Below are positions 2,432-10,901 of a DNA stretch of 10,901 nucleotides, piece after piece (the stretch's first letter is position 1; each line of letters begins with the position of its first letter). The notes beneath the pieces were generated by a model. That model saw only the letters and a program-made list of their open reading frames with translations. It was not told the DNA's origin and searched no databases. Both the position numbers and the translations under genes were made by a program. The DNA is from a virus, in UHGV virus genome UHGV-0071665; one strand, written 5' to 3'.

Positions 2432-2857
2432 ATGCCGAGCAAAGATTACTATCTTAATCGAAGGGCTAGGCTTGCTAAGACCGTGGAAAAGTTGGGTGGT
2501 CGTTGCGCGAGTTGCGGATCCGAATATTCGCTTCAGTTTGACCACATAGACCCTTCCACCAAATCAGCAAATGTAAGCGAGATGCACTATCACTCAGATT
2601 AGGTGTTTTATGCTGAGGTTGAAAAGTGCCAACTACTATGTTCTGCATGCCACATTCAGAAAACCAAATTTGACCTTAGCTACTTAGTAGCTGGTGAGCT
2701 GAATGGTATGAGCAAGCTAACAATGGACAGCGTCCAGTTCATCAGAGAAAACTACATTCCACGACATAAGGTTTATGGAGCCAGAGGGCTAGGGAGAATG
2801 TTTGGTGTAACACATCAAACAGTGCTTTCAGCCTTAAATGGCGAAAGCTGGAAATAA
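2432..2857 (+). pseudogene. HNH endonuclease ORF interrupted by an in-frame amber codon (TAG 2600-2602)
   Basis: Hand translation from ATG 2432: MPSKDYYLNRRARLAKTVEKLGGRCASCGSEYSLQFDHIDPSTKSANVSEMHYHSD, then TAG, then the same frame continues as the track ORF 2603..2857 (VFYAEVEKCQLLCSACHIQKT...). Together the halves carry the HNH signature (CxxC, DH, then LLCxxCH). GAGG at 2422-2425 precedes the ATG. Confidence 0.6.
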
Positions 2858-3301: not shown

Positions 3302-3711
3302 GCCCGCATTATCTTCATTGAAAACTGGCAACTCAGAGAATCATCCAAATTAAAAAAGCAGCAACGAGAGCGATTACTAATACATTCTTCGCTTTTTCTC
3401 TTCTGCTGGCCTTCACAAAAGGATTCACTATCCGGCAGTGGCTACACACAAGTGATTCTGGGTTAATTAACTTTCCGCAGTAGGGGCAGGGCTTGATAAT
3501 CATTGGTACTAATTAAGTTGTGAGAACGTAGTCTCATTTAACCACATTTATCGAGTTGTTTTACTAATGGTCTAGTTATTTCAGACATATTCATCAATTT
3601 CAGGCTCACGGGAATCATCCGCTACGTGCTTTGTTGATAAATCCAGCCCGTGAAGCCTGACCCTTTTCAAACACACACACAGCACCATCCGGAAAATCGG
3701 AGGTGAGGCCT

Positions 3712-4035
3712 ATGAAAATGCCATACAAACAAGATTTCATCGCTGCGCTACTTGCCGCCAAGGAGCAGGGTATTGGTGCAATGCTGGCTTTTATCATGGC
3801 GTATCTGCGTGGTCGCTATAACGGCGGCGCGGTAACAAAAACGCTAATTGATGCGCTGATGTGCGCGATGATTGCCTGGTTCGTTCGTGACCTTCTGGAC
3901 TTTATCGGCCTGAGCAGCAACCTCGCCTACATAGCCAGCGTCTTTATTGGATACATCGGCACCGATTCGATCGGCAATCTTATTAAAAAACTTGCAGCAA
4001 AAAAGGCGGGAGTTGACGATGCAAACCAGTCCTGA
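3712..4035 (+). CDS. S: Class I holin, lambda S-like, with dual-start motif
   Basis: Near-collinear with lambda S as I recall it (MKMP...[11 protein letters not shown]...[11 protein letters not shown]...SNLAYI...GYIGTDSIG). Met-Lys-Met start at 3712/3718, GGAGG at 3699-3703. The track's GTG at 3703 is an in-frame alternative. Confidence 0.85.
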
Positions 4036-4468
4036 CGGAATTGCTCTGATAAAAAAATTTGAAGGTTGTCGGCTGACTGCTTACCCCGACCCCGGAACGG
4101 GAGATGCGCCGTGGACCATCGGCTATGGCTGGACCCATCCGGTTGACGGAAAGCCAGTAAAGCGCGGTATGACTATCGACCAGCAAACCGCTGACAGGCT
4201 TCTGAAAACAGGGCTTGTTGGTTATGAGAATGACGTGCTGAAAGTTGTCAGGGTGAAGCTGACACAAGGCCAGTTCGACGCACTGGTGTCGTTCGCTTAC
4301 AACGTTGGGTCGCGTGCTCTTTCCACATCTACACTGCTGAAAAAGCTGAATGCTGGCGATATAAAAGGCGCGGCAGATGAATTTCTGCGCTGGAATAAAT
4401 CAGGCGGAAAGGTGATGCCGGGGCTCACGAATCGCCGCAAGGCAGAGCGAGCTCTGTTCCTGTCATGA
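4019..4468 (+). CDS. Endolysin, GH24 (T4/P22 gp19-type lysozyme)
   Basis: FEG...YPDPG...WTIGYGWT catalytic region and a C-terminus ([14 protein letters not shown]) matching P22-type lysozymes. Start placed at ATG 4019, with an SD and overlapping the holin 3' end, rather than the track's 3947, which lies inside the holin. Confidence 0.85.
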
Positions 4469-4932
4469 TTAGCGCACTGGTTAAGCGTTACTGGCTGCAG
4501 TTGCTGGTGCTGGCGTTAATCGGCGCACTGGCTTTCTTCGTGAACCACTACCGCGACAACGCCATCACTTACAGAGACCAGCGCGATAAGGCCACTGAGA
4601 AACTCCTCCTGGCGACCGCCACCATTAAAGACATGCAGACCCGCCAGCGTGATGTCGCTGCACTGGATGCCAAATACACCGGAGAACTGGCTGATGCGAA
4701 AGAAACCATTGAGCGTCTGCATAGCGATGTCATTGCTGGCCGTAAGCGCCTGCAAGTCGCCGCCACCTGTGCAAAGTCAACGACCGGAGCCAGCAGCATG
4801 GGCGATGGAGAAAGCCCAAGACTTACAGCAGATGCTGAACTCAATTATTACCGTCTACGAAGTGGAATCGACAAGATAACCGCGCAGGTTAACTACCTGC
4901 AGGAATACATCAGGACGCAATGCCTGAAATAA
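4465..4932 (+). CDS. Rz: Rz-type inner-membrane spanin
   Basis: 155 aa with an N-terminal transmembrane anchor ([18 protein letters not shown]) and a charged, coiled-coil-like periplasmic domain. ATGA overlap with the endolysin stop. Confidence 0.8.
4694..4879 (+). CDS. Rz1: Rz1-type outer-membrane lipoprotein spanin, embedded in the +1 frame of Rz
   Basis: Within track ORF 4649..4879: [20 protein letters not shown] is a lipoprotein signal with lipobox, followed by a proline-rich mature part ([14 protein letters not shown]). GGAG sits 8 nt upstream of ATG 4694. Confidence 0.7.
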
Positions 4933-6237: not shown

Positions 6238-6393
6238 ATGGCAAAGCTCACCGACAAACAAGAGCTGTTTGCCCGTGAGTACCTGAAAGATTTAAACGCC
6301 ACACAGGCAGCTATCAGGGCGGGTTGGGCAAAAGCTCAACAACATGCCGTATTACCGCGCGAAACAATACGCGCAGATGCTTGGCATCGATGA
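6238..6393 (+). pseudogene. Terminase small-subunit N-terminal stub (51 codons)
   Basis: ORF below the track's size cut-off, translated by hand: MAKLTDKQELFAREYLKDLNATQAAIRAG, then unrelated sequence (WAKAQQHAVLPRETIRADAWHR) and a stop. The first part matches the conserved N-terminus of small terminase subunits as I recall it. Good SD (GGAG, 8 nt spacing). Its 3' end overlaps the next ORF by 50 nt. Confidence 0.55.
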
Positions 6394-7981
6394 AAACACG
6401 CTGATGGCGATGCGGCGCGGCATGAATGGCTTTACCGCCGATTACCAGTCGATGCTGCAAAAGACAGGGTTCAACGCTGATAAAGCGGCTGTTCAGTCCA
6501 ACAAATTCATGACGTCCATGCGCGGGCTTACGTCGCTGTTCGGCATCATGCGGGACAAGATCGGCTCAAACCTCGCTGGTGGCCTGGCTGGTTCGCTGGA
6601 CAGCCTGCGGCGGCGCATCCTCGACAATTTCCCGAAGATTGAAGAGACGCTGACCAGAGTTATTAAAGGCGTGATCTGGCTTGCGAACGCATTCACGAGA
6701 ATGGCGTGGCGGCTGATACAGGGCGCTGGCTCTGTCATCGACTGGTGGAAGCGTCTTGACGATGGCAGTAAAAATCTGCTGAAAATATTCGGTGCTCTAC
6801 TGGTCGCATGGCGTCTGCTTAATTCTGCGTTCCTGAAATCCCCGATTGGAATTATCACCACACTGATTCTGGCGATCGGATTGCTGTACGACGATTACCA
6901 GACGTGGAAAGAGGGCGGTAAAAGCCTGATTGACTGGTCCAAATGGCAGCCAGAAATTGAGCAGGCAAAGAAGGTGTTCAAGTGGCTGCGCGATAAGTTT
7001 CTGGAGCTCAAGGACAACCTCGGCGGCTGGAAAAATACGCTCACCATCCTGTTTGGCTTTCTGGCTGGTGCGAAGCTGGTCTCCATGCTCACTGGCATCG
7101 GGCGACTTGTCGCCGGATTTATGGGGCTTGGTAAGGCAATTGGCGGCTCTATTGGTGGGCTGGGTAAGCTGGCGCAGGGGATCGCACAGCTGGCAATCAA
7201 GAATCCATGGTTGCTTATGTTCATTCCTGCCAACAATACGCCGACCACCAGTGAAGAAATGGCGTCGATTGGCGGTATAGGCAGCAATATCGTACCTGAA
7301 AGGCAGCAGGCATATGAGGCGCTGAGAAAGGAAAATCCCGGCAAAGACTTTTTCACTGATGAGCAAATCCAGCGAAAAATTCAGGAGATGGGACTGGAGC
7401 CGGAGCAGCGAGCGCAGTCGGTTAAGCGACCTCAGGCGACGGCCCAGGGCAAGGTATTGCTCGACTGGATGGGGCCAATGTTCAATAAACTGGAGTCGCT
7501 TTATCAGCTGCCAGCTGGCCTGTTGAAAAGCGTGGCGATCACCGAGTCGGGTGGTAACCAGTTCGCCATATCCGGCGCAGGCGCGAAAGGACTGTTTCAG
7601 TTTATGGATGGCACGGCGCGCGACATGGGCCTGCGTGGGAATGATGTATTCGACCCGGAAAAGTCAGCTCAGGCAGCCGCTAAGTACCTCAGCCAGCTGT
7701 TGCGGCAGAACGGCGGAGACCTTAGCAAAGCACTGGCATCATATAACTGGGGGATCGGGAATGTTAAGCGTTATGGAATGGGGCTAATGCCGCAGGAAAC
7801 GCGCAACTACATTCCGAAAGTGATGAGCAATATGCCCACCAGCGCCCCGGTGATTCAGCAGGAAACGAACATTAACATCCACGGCGTTTCCGATCCGCGC
7901 GAGGCTGCCCGTTTGACTGTTGACCGTCAAAAGGGCGTGAATTCACAGTTAACCCAGCAACTCCCCGCAGGACCGAGATAA
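6344..7981 (+). CDS. Tape-measure protein, C-terminal portion, with lytic transglycosylase (SLT) domain; probably 5'-truncated
   Basis: 545 aa with Gly-rich hydrophobic stretches (GIGRLVAGFMGLGKAIGGSIGGLGKLAQGIA) and an SLT-type motif (ITESGGNQFAISGAGAKGLFQFM...AAKYL...ASYNWGIG). First in-frame ATG has no convincing RBS, and the frame is open upstream only to 6296. Confidence 0.7.
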   Translation: MPYYRAKQYAQMLGIDENTLMAMRRGMNGFTADYQSMLQKTGFNADKAAVQSNKFMTSMRGLTSLFGIMRDKIGSNLAGGLAGSLDSLRRRILDNFPKIEETLTRVIKGVIWLANAFTRMAWRLIQGAGSVIDWWKRLDDGSKNLLKIFGALLVAWRLLNSAFLKSPIGIITTLILAIGLLYDDYQTWKEGGKSLIDWSKWQPEIEQAKKVFKWLRDKFLELKDNLGGWKNTLTILFGFLAGAKLVSMLTGIGRLVAGFMGLGKAIGGSIGGLGKLAQGIAQLAIKNPWLLMFIPANNTPTTSEEMASIGGIGSNIVPERQQAYEALRKENPGKDFFTDEQIQRKIQEMGLEPEQRAQSVKRPQATAQGKVLLDWMGPMFNKLESLYQLPAGLLKSVAITESGGNQFAISGAGAKGLFQFMDGTARDMGLRGNDVFDPEKSAQAAAKYLSQLLRQNGGDLSKALASYNWGIGNVKRYGMGLMPQETRNYIPKVMSNMPTSAPVIQQETNINIHGVSDPREAARLTVDRQKGVNSQLTQQLPAGPR

Positions 7982-8583
7982 TGGATATTTTATCAGCGAT
8001 TTTTCGCCAGCAATCCCGGCGAATTGGCCTGCTGATCCCCAGCGTGGTCGTTTCCGAAAAGCATTCTGATGCGCTCGAAATTACTGAGCACCCGGTGGAG
8101 AAGCCAACAACGAATAGCGCGTCGGGTTTCATCGCCGATCATGCGTATAAGCGCCCCAGCGAAGTCACGATGGAATGCGGCTTCGCAGGTGGCGGTTCGT
8201 TGCTGGACTTCATTGATACATCGTCAATCGGCCTCAGCGCCGGACTTAGCCCGAAAGAGACCTATCAGCAACTACTGGATCTCCAGTCCTCTCGGGTGCC
8301 GTTCGATGTAGTGACCGGAAAGCGGGTTTACAGCAATATGCTGGTGCGAGCCATCGAGGTGACAACGGATAAAACCAGCGAGAACGTGCTGAACTGCACG
8401 CTTACCCTGCGTGAAGTGATCATGTCGCAGACGCAGAGCGTTAGCGTTGCAGATAAATCAGATATGCAGGATGGCGTCAGCACATCGGCGGTGCAGAATT
8501 CCGGGATGAAATCCACTACACCGCCAAACGAATCCTTGCTGAGCCAGCTGGGCGGAAGCGTTACATCAGCATTCGGGGGATGA
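7981..8583 (+). CDS. Putative tail-tip or baseplate protein (family not recognised)
   Basis: 200 aa ORF; start overlaps the tape-measure stop (ATAATG). Assigned by position only. Confidence 0.45.
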   Translation: MDILSAIFRQQSRRIGLLIPSVVVSEKHSDALEITEHPVEKPTTNSASGFIADHAYKRPSEVTMECGFAGGGSLLDFIDTSSIGLSAGLSPKETYQQLLDLQSSRVPFDVVTGKRVYSNMLVRAIEVTTDKTSENVLNCTLTLREVIMSQTQSVSVADKSDMQDGVSTSAVQNSGMKSTTPPNESLLSQLGGSVTSAFGG

Positions 8584-8584
8584 T

Positions 8585-8890
8585 ATGCAGTTTAACGAAA
8601 TACCGCTTTCTCCTGACAATCAGCAGTTCCGCGTTTTGCTGGGCAATACCACGTATACACTCAGGATCATCTGACGTGATGCGGCTGGCTGGATTATGGA
8701 CGTGATGGATAGCGGCGGTGCCGCGCTTCTCTCTGGCGTACCTCTACTGACCGGCGTAAACCTTTTACGACAATATCCACAGCTTGGCATTGATGGCGCG
8801 CTGGTGGTGGCGACCGATAAGGGCGCACCAGACGAGCCCACCAAAACCAACCTCGGCACATACAGCCACCTCATTTTCGTACAGGAGTAG
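8585..8890 (+). pseudogene. Small tail-associated ORF with an in-frame TGA (8672-8674)
   Basis: ATG 8585 is 2 nt after the upstream stop with a GGGGGA SD. The frame reads MQFNEIPLSPDNQQFRVLLGNTTYTLRII, then TGA, then continues in the same frame (RDAAGWIMDV...) to TAG 8890, 3 nt before the next gene. The track shows only the distal part (8696..8890). Confidence 0.45.
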
Positions 8891-8892
8891 AA

Positions 8893-9960
8893 ATGTCTCT
8901 TAACTGGATGCGCCATTTTGAGCTGCAACTGTTGGACCAGAACGGGCAGGGCGTTTCCCTGTCTGACTTTAAGGTCACGTTCCAGATCGAGTGGGCAGAC
9001 ACACGCTGGCCACGCGTGGCGAACGTGAAAATTTACAACCTTTCGACCGATACCACGAACAAGATACTGGGGCAGGAGTTTGCAAAAATTCGCATCATTG
9101 CCGGGTATGACGGTATTGCGCCGGATGTTGATGCGAGCCAGGTTGGTGTCGCCCGGGAGATTTCACCAGACCAGGTAGGGCAGGTGAACGGTCAGAACTA
9201 CGGCCTGATATTTGACGGTGATATTCGCTTCACCGTCACCGGGAAGGACAACATCACCGATTCCTGGGTGCTGATTCAGGCCATCAGTAACCACGAAGCG
9301 TTCCTCTACGCGACTACCATCACCACGCTTGCCGCTGGTTATACCGTTGCGGACCTGCACCGGGCGACTATGCAGGATTTCAACGCGTTCGGCGTGACGC
9401 AGGGCATTACCGGTGACTTTCCTGATACCGTGTTTCCTCGTGGCCGTGCGATTTATTCATCCACCCGTAACGTGATGGATAATATTGCTGCGCAGTGCAA
9501 AGCGACATGGCAGCTGGTGGATGGTCAGGTCCAGATGGTGCCGGAGGATAAATATATTCACGAAGCCATTGTGTTGAATGCCGATACTGGCCTGATCGGT
9601 ATGCCGCAACAAACGATGGGCGGCGGAGTAAACGTGCGGTGCCTGATAAACCCAAACATCCGTATTAATGGTCTTATCCAGCTCGATCAGGCTTCGGTGT
9701 ACCGCGCCGCGCTCGGTAATAGCGAAATAGCACAGTCGCCCGGTCGCATCACCGAAACAGAAGAGAACGGCAACCGCGTACTGACCGGCACAACGTCACA
9801 GGCTGCCAGCATTGCGACAGATGGCGTTTATATCGTCAAAGCTATCGATTATACTGGTGACACCAGAGGTCAGGCGTGGTACATGGATTTGATGTGTTTT
9901 GCGCGTGGGGCTCGTGACCTGATTAGCCAGTCGACTATAGCTCGCTCAGGAGGAAATTAA
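8893..9960 (+). CDS. Putative tail-tip or baseplate hub protein (family not recognised)
   Basis: 355 aa ORF with a CAGGAG SD upstream, tightly packed after the small ORF. Assigned by position in the post-tape-measure block. Confidence 0.45.
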   Translation: MSLNWMRHFELQLLDQNGQGVSLSDFKVTFQIEWADTRWPRVANVKIYNLSTDTTNKILGQEFAKIRIIAGYDGIAPDVDASQVGVAREISPDQVGQVNGQNYGLIFDGDIRFTVTGKDNITDSWVLIQAISNHEAFLYATTITTLAAGYTVADLHRATMQDFNAFGVTQGITGDFPDTVFPRGRAIYSSTRNVMDNIAAQCKATWQLVDGQVQMVPEDKYIHEAIVLNADTGLIGMPQQTMGGGVNVRCLINPNIRINGLIQLDQASVYRAALGNSEIAQSPGRITETEENGNRVLTGTTSQAASIATDGVYIVKAIDYTGDTRGQAWYMDLMCFARGARDLISQSTIARSGGN

Positions 9961-10851
9961 GTGGGTACAAATAAGAACGGAATTCGATATAGCGCACTTT
10001 TTCTTTCCGGGTTGCTCTTATCCGGGGGCGCGAGTGCAGGCTTTAATTCCGCGCAGAACGCTGAGTACAAAAGACGTCCAGGATGGCAGCCGATAGTAAT
10101 TTTATCGACAGATGATTGTCAGACATGGAAATCTAAAGGGAAGTCACTAATTGACTGGAGTGGCGAGATCTGTGGTCCTGACGGGTTGATTAAGGCAATC
10201 AATAAAAAGCCGGAGAATATACCAGCTTTTTATGCTGCATATCATGAGTACGGCACAGGTGGAGTTAGGGCTATCGATGTAAGAGATAATTCTCAGCTAA
10301 ATTATCTCAATTTTGTAAATGATTTAGCTAAGAAACTTTCTTCTTCGGCTGTTGTATTAAAGATTTATGATGATTATATCATTGATAGAAAACCCATGGG
10401 GCTTGCAGAGGTTTCACGAGAAAATTTTGTAAAACAGCTAAATGAGTTATCGCTGAAGCAACCTGCCATCTATCAAAAAATGAACGACGTAGCCAAGGCT
10501 GATTACGAGAAAAGTAGTAATGTTCACAGTAACGAAAAGCTTGGCGTGAATTACAAAACAGTCTGTGGTCCTTATACGATTGATCTGTCTTCTGCTGATG
10601 GTTGGGCCAGAATTAATGGCGCAAAACCAGAGACGCAAAAAATTAGCCCAATCGGCTCTGGTGGTAGCACCAAAGGGGAACCGGATAACATCAAGATGGA
10701 GTGGATGGCTGCCACTAATCAACCCGGCCGCTGGGTTGGGCTTGAGTACATCAAGCGCAACGGAAAAGCTATTCTCAACGCACAGTGGTTGCAGGCCAGC
10801 ATAGACGCGCCGCGCCAGTATGCAACATACGACTGCCGAAAAGTAAAATAG
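9961..10851 (+). CDS. Secreted/periplasmic protein with Sec signal peptide; moron-like accessory gene
   Basis: GTG start with a strong AGGAGG SD 7 nt upstream. N-terminus MGTNKNGIRYSALFLSGLLLSGGASA|GF is a classic signal peptide with an AXA site and no lipobox Cys. Four Cys in the mature part. Central part about 33% GC (10261-10460) against about 51-57% at the ends. Followed by a hairpin. Confidence 0.6.
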   Translation: MGTNKNGIRYSALFLSGLLLSGGASAGFNSAQNAEYKRRPGWQPIVILSTDDCQTWKSKGKSLIDWSGEICGPDGLIKAINKKPENIPAFYAAYHEYGTGGVRAIDVRDNSQLNYLNFVNDLAKKLSSSAVVLKIYDDYIIDRKPMGLAEVSRENFVKQLNELSLKQPAIYQKMNDVAKADYEKSSNVHSNEKLGVNYKTVCGPYTIDLSSADGWARINGAKPETQKISPIGSGGSTKGEPDNIKMEWMAATNQPGRWVGLEYIKRNGKAILNAQWLQASIDAPRQYATYDCRKVK

Positions 10852-10868
10852 CCCGCCAGATAGGCGGG
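10850..10868. terminator. GC-rich hairpin after the last gene, possibly bidirectional
   Basis: gcccgcc / ggcgggc 7-bp stem with a 5-nt loop. No T tract on the + strand; on the - strand the hairpin is followed by a T-rich run (ctattttactttt). Confidence 0.4.
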
Positions 10869-10901
10869 CATGCGTCAAAAATATTGAGCTTTAATTATAA
10901 T

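What the first reader, a model, noticed from the sequence alone, without database searches (positions are those of the whole stretch)
9961..10851. Signal-peptide protein with a low-GC core at the end of the tail block: candidate moron or lysogenic-conversion gene
It has a strong SD, a GTG start, a classic cleavable signal peptide and four cysteines (likely periplasmic disulfides). GC content is mosaic: the central 300 bp is about 33% GC inside flanks of about 51-57%. It replaces the further tail genes expected after the tail-tip block, consistent with horizontally acquired cargo. I could not assign a family.
Basis: partly seen in the sequence, partly recalled or inferred. Interest (0 to 1): 0.55.

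Follow-up and report, generated by a model that had tools for sequence, protein, structure and literature searches.

The report
Exported two-domain prophage baseplate-locus protein
This is a real, conserved gene for a protein exported to the cell envelope, sitting at a variable cargo site in the middle (not the end) of a prophage baseplate gene block; it most likely helps the lysogen keep out related phages, but that role is untested.

Summary
The ORF 9961-10851 (GTG start, AGGAGG Shine-Dalgarno, 296 aa) is real and under strong purifying selection (dN/dS 0.06-0.08). The signal peptide, four conserved cysteines and the GC dip are confirmed (0.34 overall; GC3 0.17-0.30 against 0.62-0.65 in neighbouring tail genes).

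The "end of the tail block" reading is wrong. In near-identical intact prophages the gene lies between the baseplate hub and the spike, and the baseplate and fibre genes follow. The window simply ends there.

The protein is a fusion of two uncharacterised modules:
- **N-domain (aa 33-195):** helical, with no solved-structure match. Otherwise found in about 350-aa lipoproteins on integrase/primase islands.
- **C-domain (aa 196-296):** an eight-stranded beta-barrel (phrog_3443). On its own it is a short periplasmic protein at the same site in many enterobacterial myophages, with six tandem copies in one Serratia prophage.

Most relatives carry a lipobox cysteine. This allele has Gly23 and an ASA|G signal-peptidase I site instead.

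The N-domain contains a segment (DDCQTWKSKGKSLIDWS) matching the most conserved motif of the phage's own tape-measure protein (profile-profile E 2.7e-8).

Best guess, untested: a periplasmic superinfection-exclusion factor. The window prophage itself is defective.

The parts
9948..9953 (+). Shine-Dalgarno AGGAGG, 7 nt upstream of the GTG start. The hub gene stop TAA (9958-9960) abuts the start codon.
   Evidence: Read directly from the sequence.
9961..10851 (+). Complete coding sequence, 296 aa plus TAG stop. It encodes an exported two-domain protein.
   Evidence: ORF list. 18 full-length homologue clusters down to 44% identity. dN/dS 0.06-0.08 in both domains.
9961..10038 (+). Signal peptide, aa 1-26, with predicted signal-peptidase I cleavage at ASA|G.
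   Evidence: n/h/c regions seen by inspection. Homologues carry a lipobox at the same place.
10027..10029 (+). Codon 23, GGC (Gly), where relatives have the lipobox cysteine (TGC). This allele has lost the acylation site.
   Evidence: 14 of 16 homologues with an N-terminus have Cys here. The near-identical Citrobacter freundii allele P0022 reads LSGCASAG, whereas the window, P0001, P0024, P0026 and P0033 have Gly.
10057..10545 (+). N-domain, aa 33-195: all-helical, no known fold. It holds the low-GC core (GC3 0.17-0.30 for codons 91-165, nt 10231-10455).
10096..10221 (+). Segment aa 46-87 that aligns to the central conserved segment of the phage tape-measure protein. The core motif is DDCQTWKSKGKSLIDWS at nt 10111-10161, bracketed by C53 (10117-10119) and C71 (10171-10173).
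   Evidence: BLASTP E 2e-6. hhalign probability 95%, E 2.7e-8, with a reversed control at E 0.4. A weak hit to the tape-measure-related phrog_3824, E 0.034. DNA identity is only 37 of 75, so this is not recent recombination.
10546..10848 (+). C-domain, aa 196-296: an eight-stranded beta-barrel of family phrog_3443, with C202 (10564-10566) and C292 (10834-10836) near its two ends.
10691..10901 (+). 3' end of the gene plus downstream DNA, shared at 85-95% nucleotide identity with prophages that carry only the short barrel gene. A recombination joint lies at about 10690 (codon 243-244).
   Evidence: Megablast hits start at query positions 727-772. L001 against L008: codons 196-243 are 99.3% identical and codons 244-296 are 86.8%. 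GC3 rises to 0.67-0.73.
10851..10869 (.). GC-rich hairpin (7 bp stem, 5 nt loop) between the convergent genes. The T-tract is on the minus strand only.
   Evidence: Terminator scan. Fold of -19.3 kcal/mol, z-score -3.9.
10875..10901 (-). 3' end of the convergent DUF4236 gene, cut by the end of the window.
   Evidence: Placed by alignment to L004, where the gene is at 10915-11205 on the minus strand and matches PF14020 at E 1.8e-20.
6890..6940 (+). The matching motif DDYQTWKEGGKSLIDWS in the window's own truncated tape-measure protein.
   Evidence: It is the most conserved central segment across 27 tape-measure proteins.
8893..9960 (+). Baseplate hub gene directly upstream (phrog_196, related to E217 gp41).

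Best explanation
**What is shown.** The gene encodes a non-structural protein exported by the Sec pathway. It sits at a variable cargo site between the baseplate hub and spike genes of a temperate myophage group with E217/Pam3-type tail genes in Enterobacterales.

It is a fusion of two modules. One is a helical domain otherwise found in about 350-aa lipoproteins carried on integrase/primase islands. The other is the small periplasmic beta-barrel that is the usual occupant of this site.

Most relatives have a lipobox cysteine and no Asp at position +2. By the standard sorting rule they would be outer-membrane lipoproteins facing the periplasm. The window allele has Gly in place of that cysteine. 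It is probably released as a soluble periplasmic protein after cleavage at ASA|G.

**What is inferred.** The protein most likely acts in the periplasm as a superinfection-exclusion factor. It would intercept the tail tip of incoming related phages after adsorption and block channel formation or DNA entry.

The favoured sub-mechanism uses the N-domain segment that copies the most conserved tape-measure motif. That segment would either bind the incoming tape-measure protein or compete for its partner. The barrel would supply a second, rapidly diversifying binding surface.
For: Export and reality of the gene:
- Signal peptide and lipobox.
- Conserved full-length family and dN/dS 0.06-0.08.

Domain make-up:
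-.

Position and variability of the site:
- Fixed position after the hub in all relatives sampled.
- The hub-to-spike gap varies from 0.4 to 5.0 kb.
- Six tandem barrel paralogues plus an insertion sequence occupy it in Serratia aquatilis. This pattern fits arms-race diversification.

N-domain in other mobile elements:
- N-domain lipoproteins lie in accessory regions of other mobile elements. One lies downstream of a D5-type primase gene in an island whose counterpart (L019) lies 3 kb from smpB. Another lies between an integrase and a repressor.

Tape-measure-like segment:
- Supported at sequence and profile level, and also in the non-tail 350-aa family at E 4.3e-5.
- In the tape-measure protein the motif lies in a polar loop between two long hydrophobic stretches.

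Precedents:
- HK97 gp15, a tail-operon moron that blocks genome entry in a tail-dependent way (PMC3594210).
- TP-J34 Ltp, a lipoprotein whose target is the tape-measure protein (Bebeacua et al. 2013, as cited in PMC3952083).
- Exclusion lipoprotein genes inside the structural clusters of mEpimmI coliphages (PMC11893012).
- T4 Spackle, a periplasmic inhibitor of the tail lysozyme (PMC7677548).
Against: - No experiment and no homology to any characterised exclusion protein. Pfam, NCBIfam and PADLOC give nothing. A PDB sequence search gives nothing. Fold searches return only generic barrels.
- The gene abuts the hub gene with no detectable promoter. It may therefore be expressed late with the tail genes rather than from the repressed prophage.
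- The tape-measure motif is almost invariant, so co-variation between it and the N-domain segment could not be tested.
- The shared segment is an integral, confidently modelled part of the N-domain fold. It may reflect old common ancestry rather than functional mimicry.
- The window allele has lost the lipid anchor, so its activity may differ from that of the family.
Confidence: 0.4

Rival explanations
1. Host-fitness or lysogenic-conversion factor unrelated to phage exclusion. This would be an envelope protein like lambda Bor or Lom, or a ligand-binding barrel, that changes surface properties, stress tolerance or nutrient capture of the lysogen.
For: - It is exported, disulfide-bearing, horizontally mobile cargo.
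- The gene is intact in a prophage that has lost its head and tail-shaft genes and has a nonsense codon in the plug gene.
Against: - It is strictly linked to one position in the baseplate module of one phage group.
- The barrel is amplified in tandem inside a tail module.
- The N-domain shares a segment with the phage's own tape-measure protein. None of this is expected for a host-directed factor.
- Neighbouring hub and Dit genes are also intact in the remnant, so retention proves nothing.
Confidence: 0.2
2. Late lytic-cycle helper made together with the tail genes. It could be a periplasmic inhibitor that restrains the transglycosylase domain of the tape-measure protein. It could be a factor that stops progeny virions from wasting themselves on lysing cells and debris. 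Or it could be an accessory to envelope disruption.
For: - Same strand as the tail genes. The start codon abuts the hub stop, there is no promoter above chance, and there is no plus-strand T-tract after the hairpin. Co-transcription with late genes is therefore the simplest reading.
- Every tape-measure protein annotated in these loci, including the window's, carries an SLT domain.
- T4 Spackle is a precedent for a periplasmic inhibitor of a tail lysin (PMC7677548).
Against: - A complete holin, lysozyme and Rz/Rz1 cassette exists elsewhere in the window, so no lysis function is missing.
- There is no similarity to known lysozyme or transglycosylase inhibitors in the fold searches.
- N-domain lipoproteins also occur on islands that have no tail genes.
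Confidence: 0.2
3. Virion structural or tail-assembly protein of the baseplate.
For: It lies inside the baseplate gene block, on the same strand, and is translationally adjacent to the hub gene.
Against: - A Sec or lipoprotein signal peptide is conserved across long and short forms. Virions assemble in the cytoplasm.
- There is no hit to any structural family.
- Copy number at the site varies from one to six.
- The composition is foreign.
Confidence: 0.03
4. In this window the gene is an inert remnant. Loss of the lipobox cysteine in a defective prophage would mark the start of decay, and only the C-terminal 101-123 aa called by annotation pipelines would matter.
For: - The C23G change.
- The prophage has a deletion from terS into the tape-measure gene, and two nonsense-interrupted genes.
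- RefSeq and other submitters often annotate only a 123- or 101-aa product.
Against: - The Gly23 allele occurs in intact prophages on at least 43 contigs and in several slightly different variants. It still has a good ASA|G site.
- Purifying selection covers the N-domain (dN/dS 0.07).
- The 123-aa product would lack any signal peptide, whereas all short natural forms have one.
Confidence: 0.07

Closest known systems
HK97 gp15 (tail-operon moron; superinfection exclusion)
   Same: - An accessory gene inserted among tail genes of a temperate enterobacterial phage, with composition unlike its neighbours.
- The product goes to the envelope.
- gp15 blocks genome entry in a way that depends on the incoming phage's tail region (PMC3594210).
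   Different: - gp15 is a small inner-membrane protein related to YebO, with its own promoter and terminator.
- The protein here is a 296-aa exported two-domain protein with no sequence relation to gp15 and no detectable promoter. Its function is untested.
TP-J34 Ltp (lipoprotein exclusion factor that targets the tape-measure protein)
   Same: - A prophage-encoded lipoprotein (true of the family here) exposed on the far side of the cytoplasmic membrane.
- Its proposed target is the tape-measure protein of the incoming phage (PMC3952083, citing Bebeacua et al. 2013).
   Different: - Ltp is from a Gram-positive siphophage, sits in the lysogeny module, and has a different fold.
- No sequence or fold match was found here.
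- The link to the tape-measure protein here is a shared sequence segment, not a demonstrated interaction.
Cor, T5 Llp and the mEpimmI Lpp lipoproteins (receptor-linked exclusion lipoproteins encoded in or near tail genes)
   Same: Small exported or lipidated proteins encoded within structural gene clusters that exclude the same or related phages (PMC11893012, PMC9586334).
   Different: - Those act by blocking an outer-membrane receptor, are much smaller, and lie near receptor-binding genes.
- This gene lies next to the hub and spike rather than the fibre genes. It shows no similarity to them.
T4 Spackle (periplasmic inhibitor of the gp5 tail lysozyme)
   Same: A signal-peptide-bearing, helical periplasmic protein from a myophage that neutralises a cell-wall-degrading tail component of superinfecting phage (PMC7677548). 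The phage here also carries a wall-degrading (SLT) domain in its tape-measure protein.
   Different: - There is no sequence or fold similarity.
- Spackle is a 97-residue early gene product.
- Inhibition of the SLT domain was not tested here.
PHROG family phrog_3443 (unknown function)
   Same: The C-terminal 100 residues are a clear member, at E 3.4e-34.
   Different: Typical members are 110-122 aa: a signal peptide plus the barrel only. This protein has a 160-residue helical domain inserted between the signal and the barrel.

Membership tests
Sec-dependent secreted protein (signal peptidase I substrate) | Basic n-region, hydrophobic h-region of 10-15 residues, and small residues at positions -3 and -1 before the cleavage site. 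| tested here: met
   K5 and R9; YSALFLSGLLLSGG; A24-S25-A26|G27. Judged by rule only, because SignalP was not available.
Bacterial lipoprotein | Lipobox [LVI][ASTVI][GAS]C at the end of the signal peptide. | tested here: not met
   - The window allele reads L-S-G-G, with Gly23 where the cysteine should be.
- The family does meet the feature: 14 of 16 homologues with an N-terminus have S/T/A-G-C, and none has Asp at +2.
- The near-identical allele P0022 has the cysteine.
phrog_3443 | Significant full-length match to the family profile. | tested here: met
   E 3.4e-34, protein residues 198-296 against profile positions 21-114 of 115. The match covers the C-domain only.
Moron (as defined for HK97 gene 15) | Own promoter, allowing expression from the repressed prophage. 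| tested here: inconclusive
   - There is no intergenic space, because the GTG follows the hub TAA directly.
- One weak promoter-like site lies inside the hub gene (9827-9855).
- Counts are not above shuffles: 3 found, 2.3 expected.
Moron (as defined for HK97 gene 15) | Own terminator. | tested here: inconclusive
   A strong hairpin lies at 10851-10869 (-19.3 kcal/mol), but its T-tract is on the minus strand, where it serves the convergent DUF4236 gene.
Moron (as defined for HK97 gene 15) | Composition unlike the flanking genes, and an inserted position between genes that are otherwise conserved neighbours. | tested here: met
   - GC3 of 0.17-0.30 against 0.62-0.65.
- The content of the hub-to-spike gap varies from 0.4 to 5 kb between relatives.
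- No relative with an empty site was sampled.
Ltp-type exclusion lipoproteins | Sequence or fold similarity to TP-J34 Ltp. | tested here: not met
Ltp-type exclusion lipoproteins | Blocks DNA injection by binding the tape-measure protein. | not testable with these tools
   Only indirect evidence: a segment shared with the tape-measure protein.
Lytic transglycosylase / GH23 (SLT) domain, active or degenerate | SLT fold with a catalytic Glu-Ser motif. | tested here: not met
   - A weak BLASTP alignment to the SLT part of the tape-measure protein (E 0.003) was not reproduced by hhalign.
- The aligned position is Lys, Gln, Arg, Ser or Ala and never Glu.
Avidin / calycin-like eight-stranded barrels | Eight-stranded up-and-down barrel, plus family-specific ligand-binding residues. 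| tested here: inconclusive
Tail fibre, baseplate or assembly proteins | Homology to a structural family and a cytoplasmic location. | tested here: not met
   No structural family in Pfam, PHROGs or NCBIfam. An export signal is conserved in long and short forms.

The most novel reading that the evidence does not exclude
The hub-to-spike gap of these myophages would be a dedicated, fast-evolving exclusion-cassette site.

The long-form protein would work by molecular mimicry. It would display in the periplasm a disulfide-stapled copy of the tape-measure protein's most conserved loop. That copy would act as a decoy, either co-assembling with the incoming tape-measure protein or titrating its envelope partner, and so abort DNA entry.

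The same helical module carried on satellite-like islands would then be a defence aimed at this whole phage group.
Probability: 0.15. Interest if true: 0.7.

Novelty: new variant of a known kind. Interest (0 to 1): 0.45.

Why it matters
- **New exclusion families.** If the exclusion role holds, two uncharacterised protein families would join the short list of envelope-level exclusion systems in Gram-negative bacteria. One of them has no match among solved structures.
- **A handle on DNA entry.** The work would identify which part of a myophage tape-measure protein is vulnerable during DNA entry, a step that is poorly understood.
- **A place to mine.** It would mark a recognisable variable site in a widespread group of enterobacterial prophages where such genes can be found.
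- **An annotation fix.** Public annotations often call only a signal-less 101- or 123-aa fragment of this gene, which hides the exported two-domain protein.

Tried and rejected
- **Recent DNA exchange as the source of the tape-measure-like motif.** Rejected: nucleotide identity is only 37 of 75 over the motif.
- **Known families.** Pfam, NCBIfam and PADLOC gave no hit for the protein or for the 356-aa relative. A PDB sequence profile search gave nothing. Foldseek against the PDB gave nothing below E 0.1.
- **Second word-indexed protein search with the N-domain alone.** It returned only one fragment from 25 candidates and was uninformative. The exhaustive profile search replaced it.
- **Co-variation between the N-domain motif and the cognate tape-measure motif.** Could not be assessed, because the tape-measure motif hardly varies.
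- **Promoter scan.** Not above chance.
- **Deposited phage genomes.** None contains the N-domain; all 19 tblastn hits cover residues 195-296 only.
- **Literature.** Searches for DUF4236 and for SEN34-like phages gave no functional data on this locus.

Full report
**The observation**

The ORF is at 9961-10851 on the plus strand, 296 codons plus TAG. It starts with GTG, 7 nt after AGGAGG (9948-9953) and directly after the TAA of the upstream gene.

The N-terminus has a basic n-region, a 14-residue hydrophobic core and A-S-A|G. The four cysteines are C53, C71, C202 and C292.

GC falls to 0.34 at 10201-10500, the lowest value in the window. The dip also shows at synonymous sites. GC3 is 0.17-0.30 for codons 91-165, 0.67-0.73 for the last 55 codons, and 0.62-0.65 in the neighbouring tail genes. 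The descriptive part of the finding is therefore correct.

**Where the gene lies**

The genes upstream of it in the window are:
- a tape-measure protein with an SLT domain (6344-7981);
- a Dit-like baseplate protein (7981-8583);
- a plug protein of the Pam3 gp18 type;
- a hub protein of the E217 gp41 type (8893-9960).

The exact 296-aa protein is encoded on many public contigs, in 68 blocks of the collection. Window 6323-10901 is 99% identical to one of them, L004.

In those intact prophages, and in E. coli EC2001 (82% protein identity), the gene is followed by a reverse-strand DUF4236 gene. Then come the spike, sheath initiator, baseplate J, wedge, fibre and fibre-assembly genes.

So the gene sits in the middle of the baseplate module. 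The window merely ends 50 bp after it.

**The gene is real and full length**

Eighteen clusters of 283-299 aa homologues align end to end down to 44% identity.

Against the E. coli EC2001 and Enterobacter bugandensis copies, dS is about 1.2-1.3. dN/dS is 0.07 in the N-domain and 0.06 in the C-domain.

Public annotation often calls only a 123- or 101-aa C-terminal product. That product would lack a signal peptide, whereas all natural short forms have one. I regard the short calls as annotation errors.

**Two modules**

*C-domain (aa 196-296).* Only residues 198-296 match a known family: phrog_3443, function unknown, E 3.4e-34.
- In Klebsiella, Escherichia, Salmonella (SEN34), Citrobacter, Serratia and Pantoea phages and prophages, the same site holds a 110-122 aa protein. 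It consists of a signal-peptidase I signal followed by this domain.
- The AlphaFold2 model shows an eight-stranded barrel.

*N-domain (aa 33-195).* It is all-helical.
- Modelled alone it reaches pLDDT 91.4 and pTM 0.84.
- An exhaustive profile search of 1.84 billion representatives finds only 20 clusters.
- Most of these are 350-374 aa lipoproteins in which the same domain is followed by a different C-terminal domain ending in WAGMARVYxxRGY.
- These proteins lie on mobile islands. In L020 one lies downstream of a D5-type primase gene, with an H-NS paralogue beyond it. In the related locus L019 the lipoprotein lies 3 kb from smpB. In L056 another lies between an integrase and a repressor.
- No deposited phage genome contains the N-domain.

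**How the mosaic arose**

Prophages that carry only the short gene share window 10691-10901 at 85-95% nucleotide identity, and nothing upstream of that.

Between two long-form copies, L001 and L008, codons 1-243 are 99-100% identical and codons 244-296 are 87% identical. The GC3 jump falls at the same place.

The hub gene is far less diverged than this gene: dS 0.30 against 1.2.

The simplest account is homologous recombination with one end in the hub gene and the other in the conserved 3' half of the barrel gene. That exchange swaps in a cassette carrying the signal, the helical domain and the first half of the barrel. The low-GC core is the body of that imported domain.

**Lipoprotein or not**

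Fourteen of the 16 homologues that include an N-terminus have S/T/A-G-C at residues 21-23. None has Asp at +2. By the standard Lol sorting rule (established knowledge) that predicts outer-membrane lipoproteins facing the periplasm.

The window allele has GGC (Gly) at codon 23. A C. freundii allele that is otherwise nearly identical has Cys.

The Gly allele occurs in several slightly different variants and on at least 43 contigs, including intact prophages. It is therefore neither a sequencing error nor confined to this remnant. With ASA|G it should be released into the periplasm.

**The tape-measure-like segment**

Residues 51-67, DDCQTWKSKGKSLIDWS, match DDYQTWKEGGKSLIDWS in the window's own tape-measure protein at 14 of 17 positions.

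| Comparison | Result |
|---|---|
| BLASTP, target against the tape-measure protein | E 2e-6 |
| hmmscan of the target against the tape-measure-related phrog_3824 | E 0.034, same residues |
| hhalign, 14 N-domains against 27 tape-measure proteins | probability 95%, E 2.7e-8, 42 columns |
| Same, with the tape-measure alignment reversed | E 0.4 |
| hhalign, non-tail 350-aa lipoprotein family against tape-measure proteins | E 4.3e-5, same register |

Further points:
- In the tape-measure protein this is the most conserved central segment. It is nearly invariant from Pantoea to Klebsiella. It lies in a polar loop between two long hydrophobic stretches.
- A regular-expression scan of plus-strand ORFs in the window and 39 loci hit only tape-measure proteins and N-domain proteins.
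- Nucleotide identity over the motif is only 37 of 75, so this is not recent DNA exchange.
- Whether it reflects old common ancestry or functional mimicry cannot be decided here.

**A variable site**

The hub-to-spike gap ranges from 0.4 to 5.0 kb in 27 loci. In Serratia aquatilis it holds six diverged barrel paralogues and an insertion sequence. Pseudescherichia vulneris has two. Tandem amplification and divergence of a secreted binding module is what one expects of a conflict-driven function.

**Mechanism**

Shown:
- an exported, non-structural, two-domain protein at a variable cargo site;
- purifying selection across the whole ORF;
- modular recombination;
- a segment shared with the tape-measure protein.

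Inferred: a periplasmic superinfection-exclusion role.

I put about 0.4 on exclusion in general and about 0.15 on the specific decoy or mimicry version. The rivals are:
- a host-directed conversion factor (0.2);
- a late lytic helper, favoured by the abutting start codon and the lack of a promoter (0.2);
- inert decay in this remnant (0.07);
- a structural role (0.03).

**Comparison and novelty**

The protein behaves like the known class of envelope-located accessory proteins encoded among tail genes. It is a member of none of the characterised families. I rate it a new variant of a known kind and of moderate interest. The most unusual element is the tape-measure-like segment.

**State of the window prophage**

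The prophage is defective.
- Left of 6323 the sequence is the first ~28 codons of a terminase small subunit (PF03592). It is joined to codon ~142 of the tape-measure gene. The terminase large subunit, portal, capsid, sheath, tube and chaperone genes are therefore absent.
- The plug gene has TGG changed to a stop at codon 30.

The target gene is nevertheless intact and identical to the copy in intact prophages.

Noticed in passing
window 6238-6344 (junction at 6322/6323): A deletion joins the first ~28 codons of a terminase small-subunit gene (PF03592, E 3.8e-11) to about codon 142 of the tape-measure gene. The large terminase, portal, capsid, sheath, tube and chaperone genes are missing, so this prophage cannot make virions.
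   Followed up: yes
window 8585-8890 (stop at 8672-8674): The baseplate plug gene (Pam3 gp18 type) carries a premature stop at codon 30, where the intact relative L004 has Trp.
   Followed up: yes
window 2432-2857: Two ORFs in the same frame (2432-2602 and 2603-2857) are separated by one in-frame stop. Joined, they match the HNH endonuclease family (23.3 bits against a cutoff of 21.4). This is probably another nonsense-interrupted gene.
   Followed up: partly
window 10875-10901 (minus strand); L004 10915-11205: A convergent 96-aa DUF4236 protein with a C-terminal hydrophobic tail accompanies the target gene in 12 of 27 loci that could be scored. Its function is unknown. It shares the GC-rich hairpin as its terminator.
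   Followed up: partly
L011 4389-9277 (Serratia aquatilis): Six diverged tandem copies of the short periplasmic barrel gene, plus an insertion-sequence transposase, lie between the hub and spike genes.
   Followed up: partly
L001 12506-12877; clusters: RefSeq and other submitters frequently annotate only a 123- or 101-aa C-terminal fragment of this gene, starting at internal Met174 (123 aa) or at residue 196, annotated as Met (101 aa). This drops the signal peptide and the whole N-domain.
   Followed up: yes
L019 5887-6957, L020 5923-6993, L056 5866-6936: A family of 350-374 aa lipoproteins (N-domain plus a C-domain ending WAGMARVYxxRGY) has no Pfam, PHROG or PADLOC match. They are carried on integrase, primase and repressor islands, one of them (L019) 3 kb from smpB.
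   Followed up: partly
window 3333-3503 (minus strand): A 56-aa zinc-ribbon protein with a C-terminal membrane helix is encoded on the opposite strand. It lies in a second low-GC patch (0.385-0.425) between the Q/HNH region and the holin gene, and is another possible moron.
   Followed up: no
window 4649-4879 within 4465-4932: An embedded +1-frame ORF inside the Rz gene has a lipobox (LAVSAC), as expected for an Rz1 outer-membrane spanin. With the holin (3703-4035) and lysozyme (3947-4468), the lysis cassette looks complete.
   Followed up: partly
P0079 (836 aa): A protein made of eight repeats of about 100 aa matches positions 16-52 of the N-domain profile in every repeat (E 1.1e-7). Its origin and meaning are unknown.
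   Followed up: no
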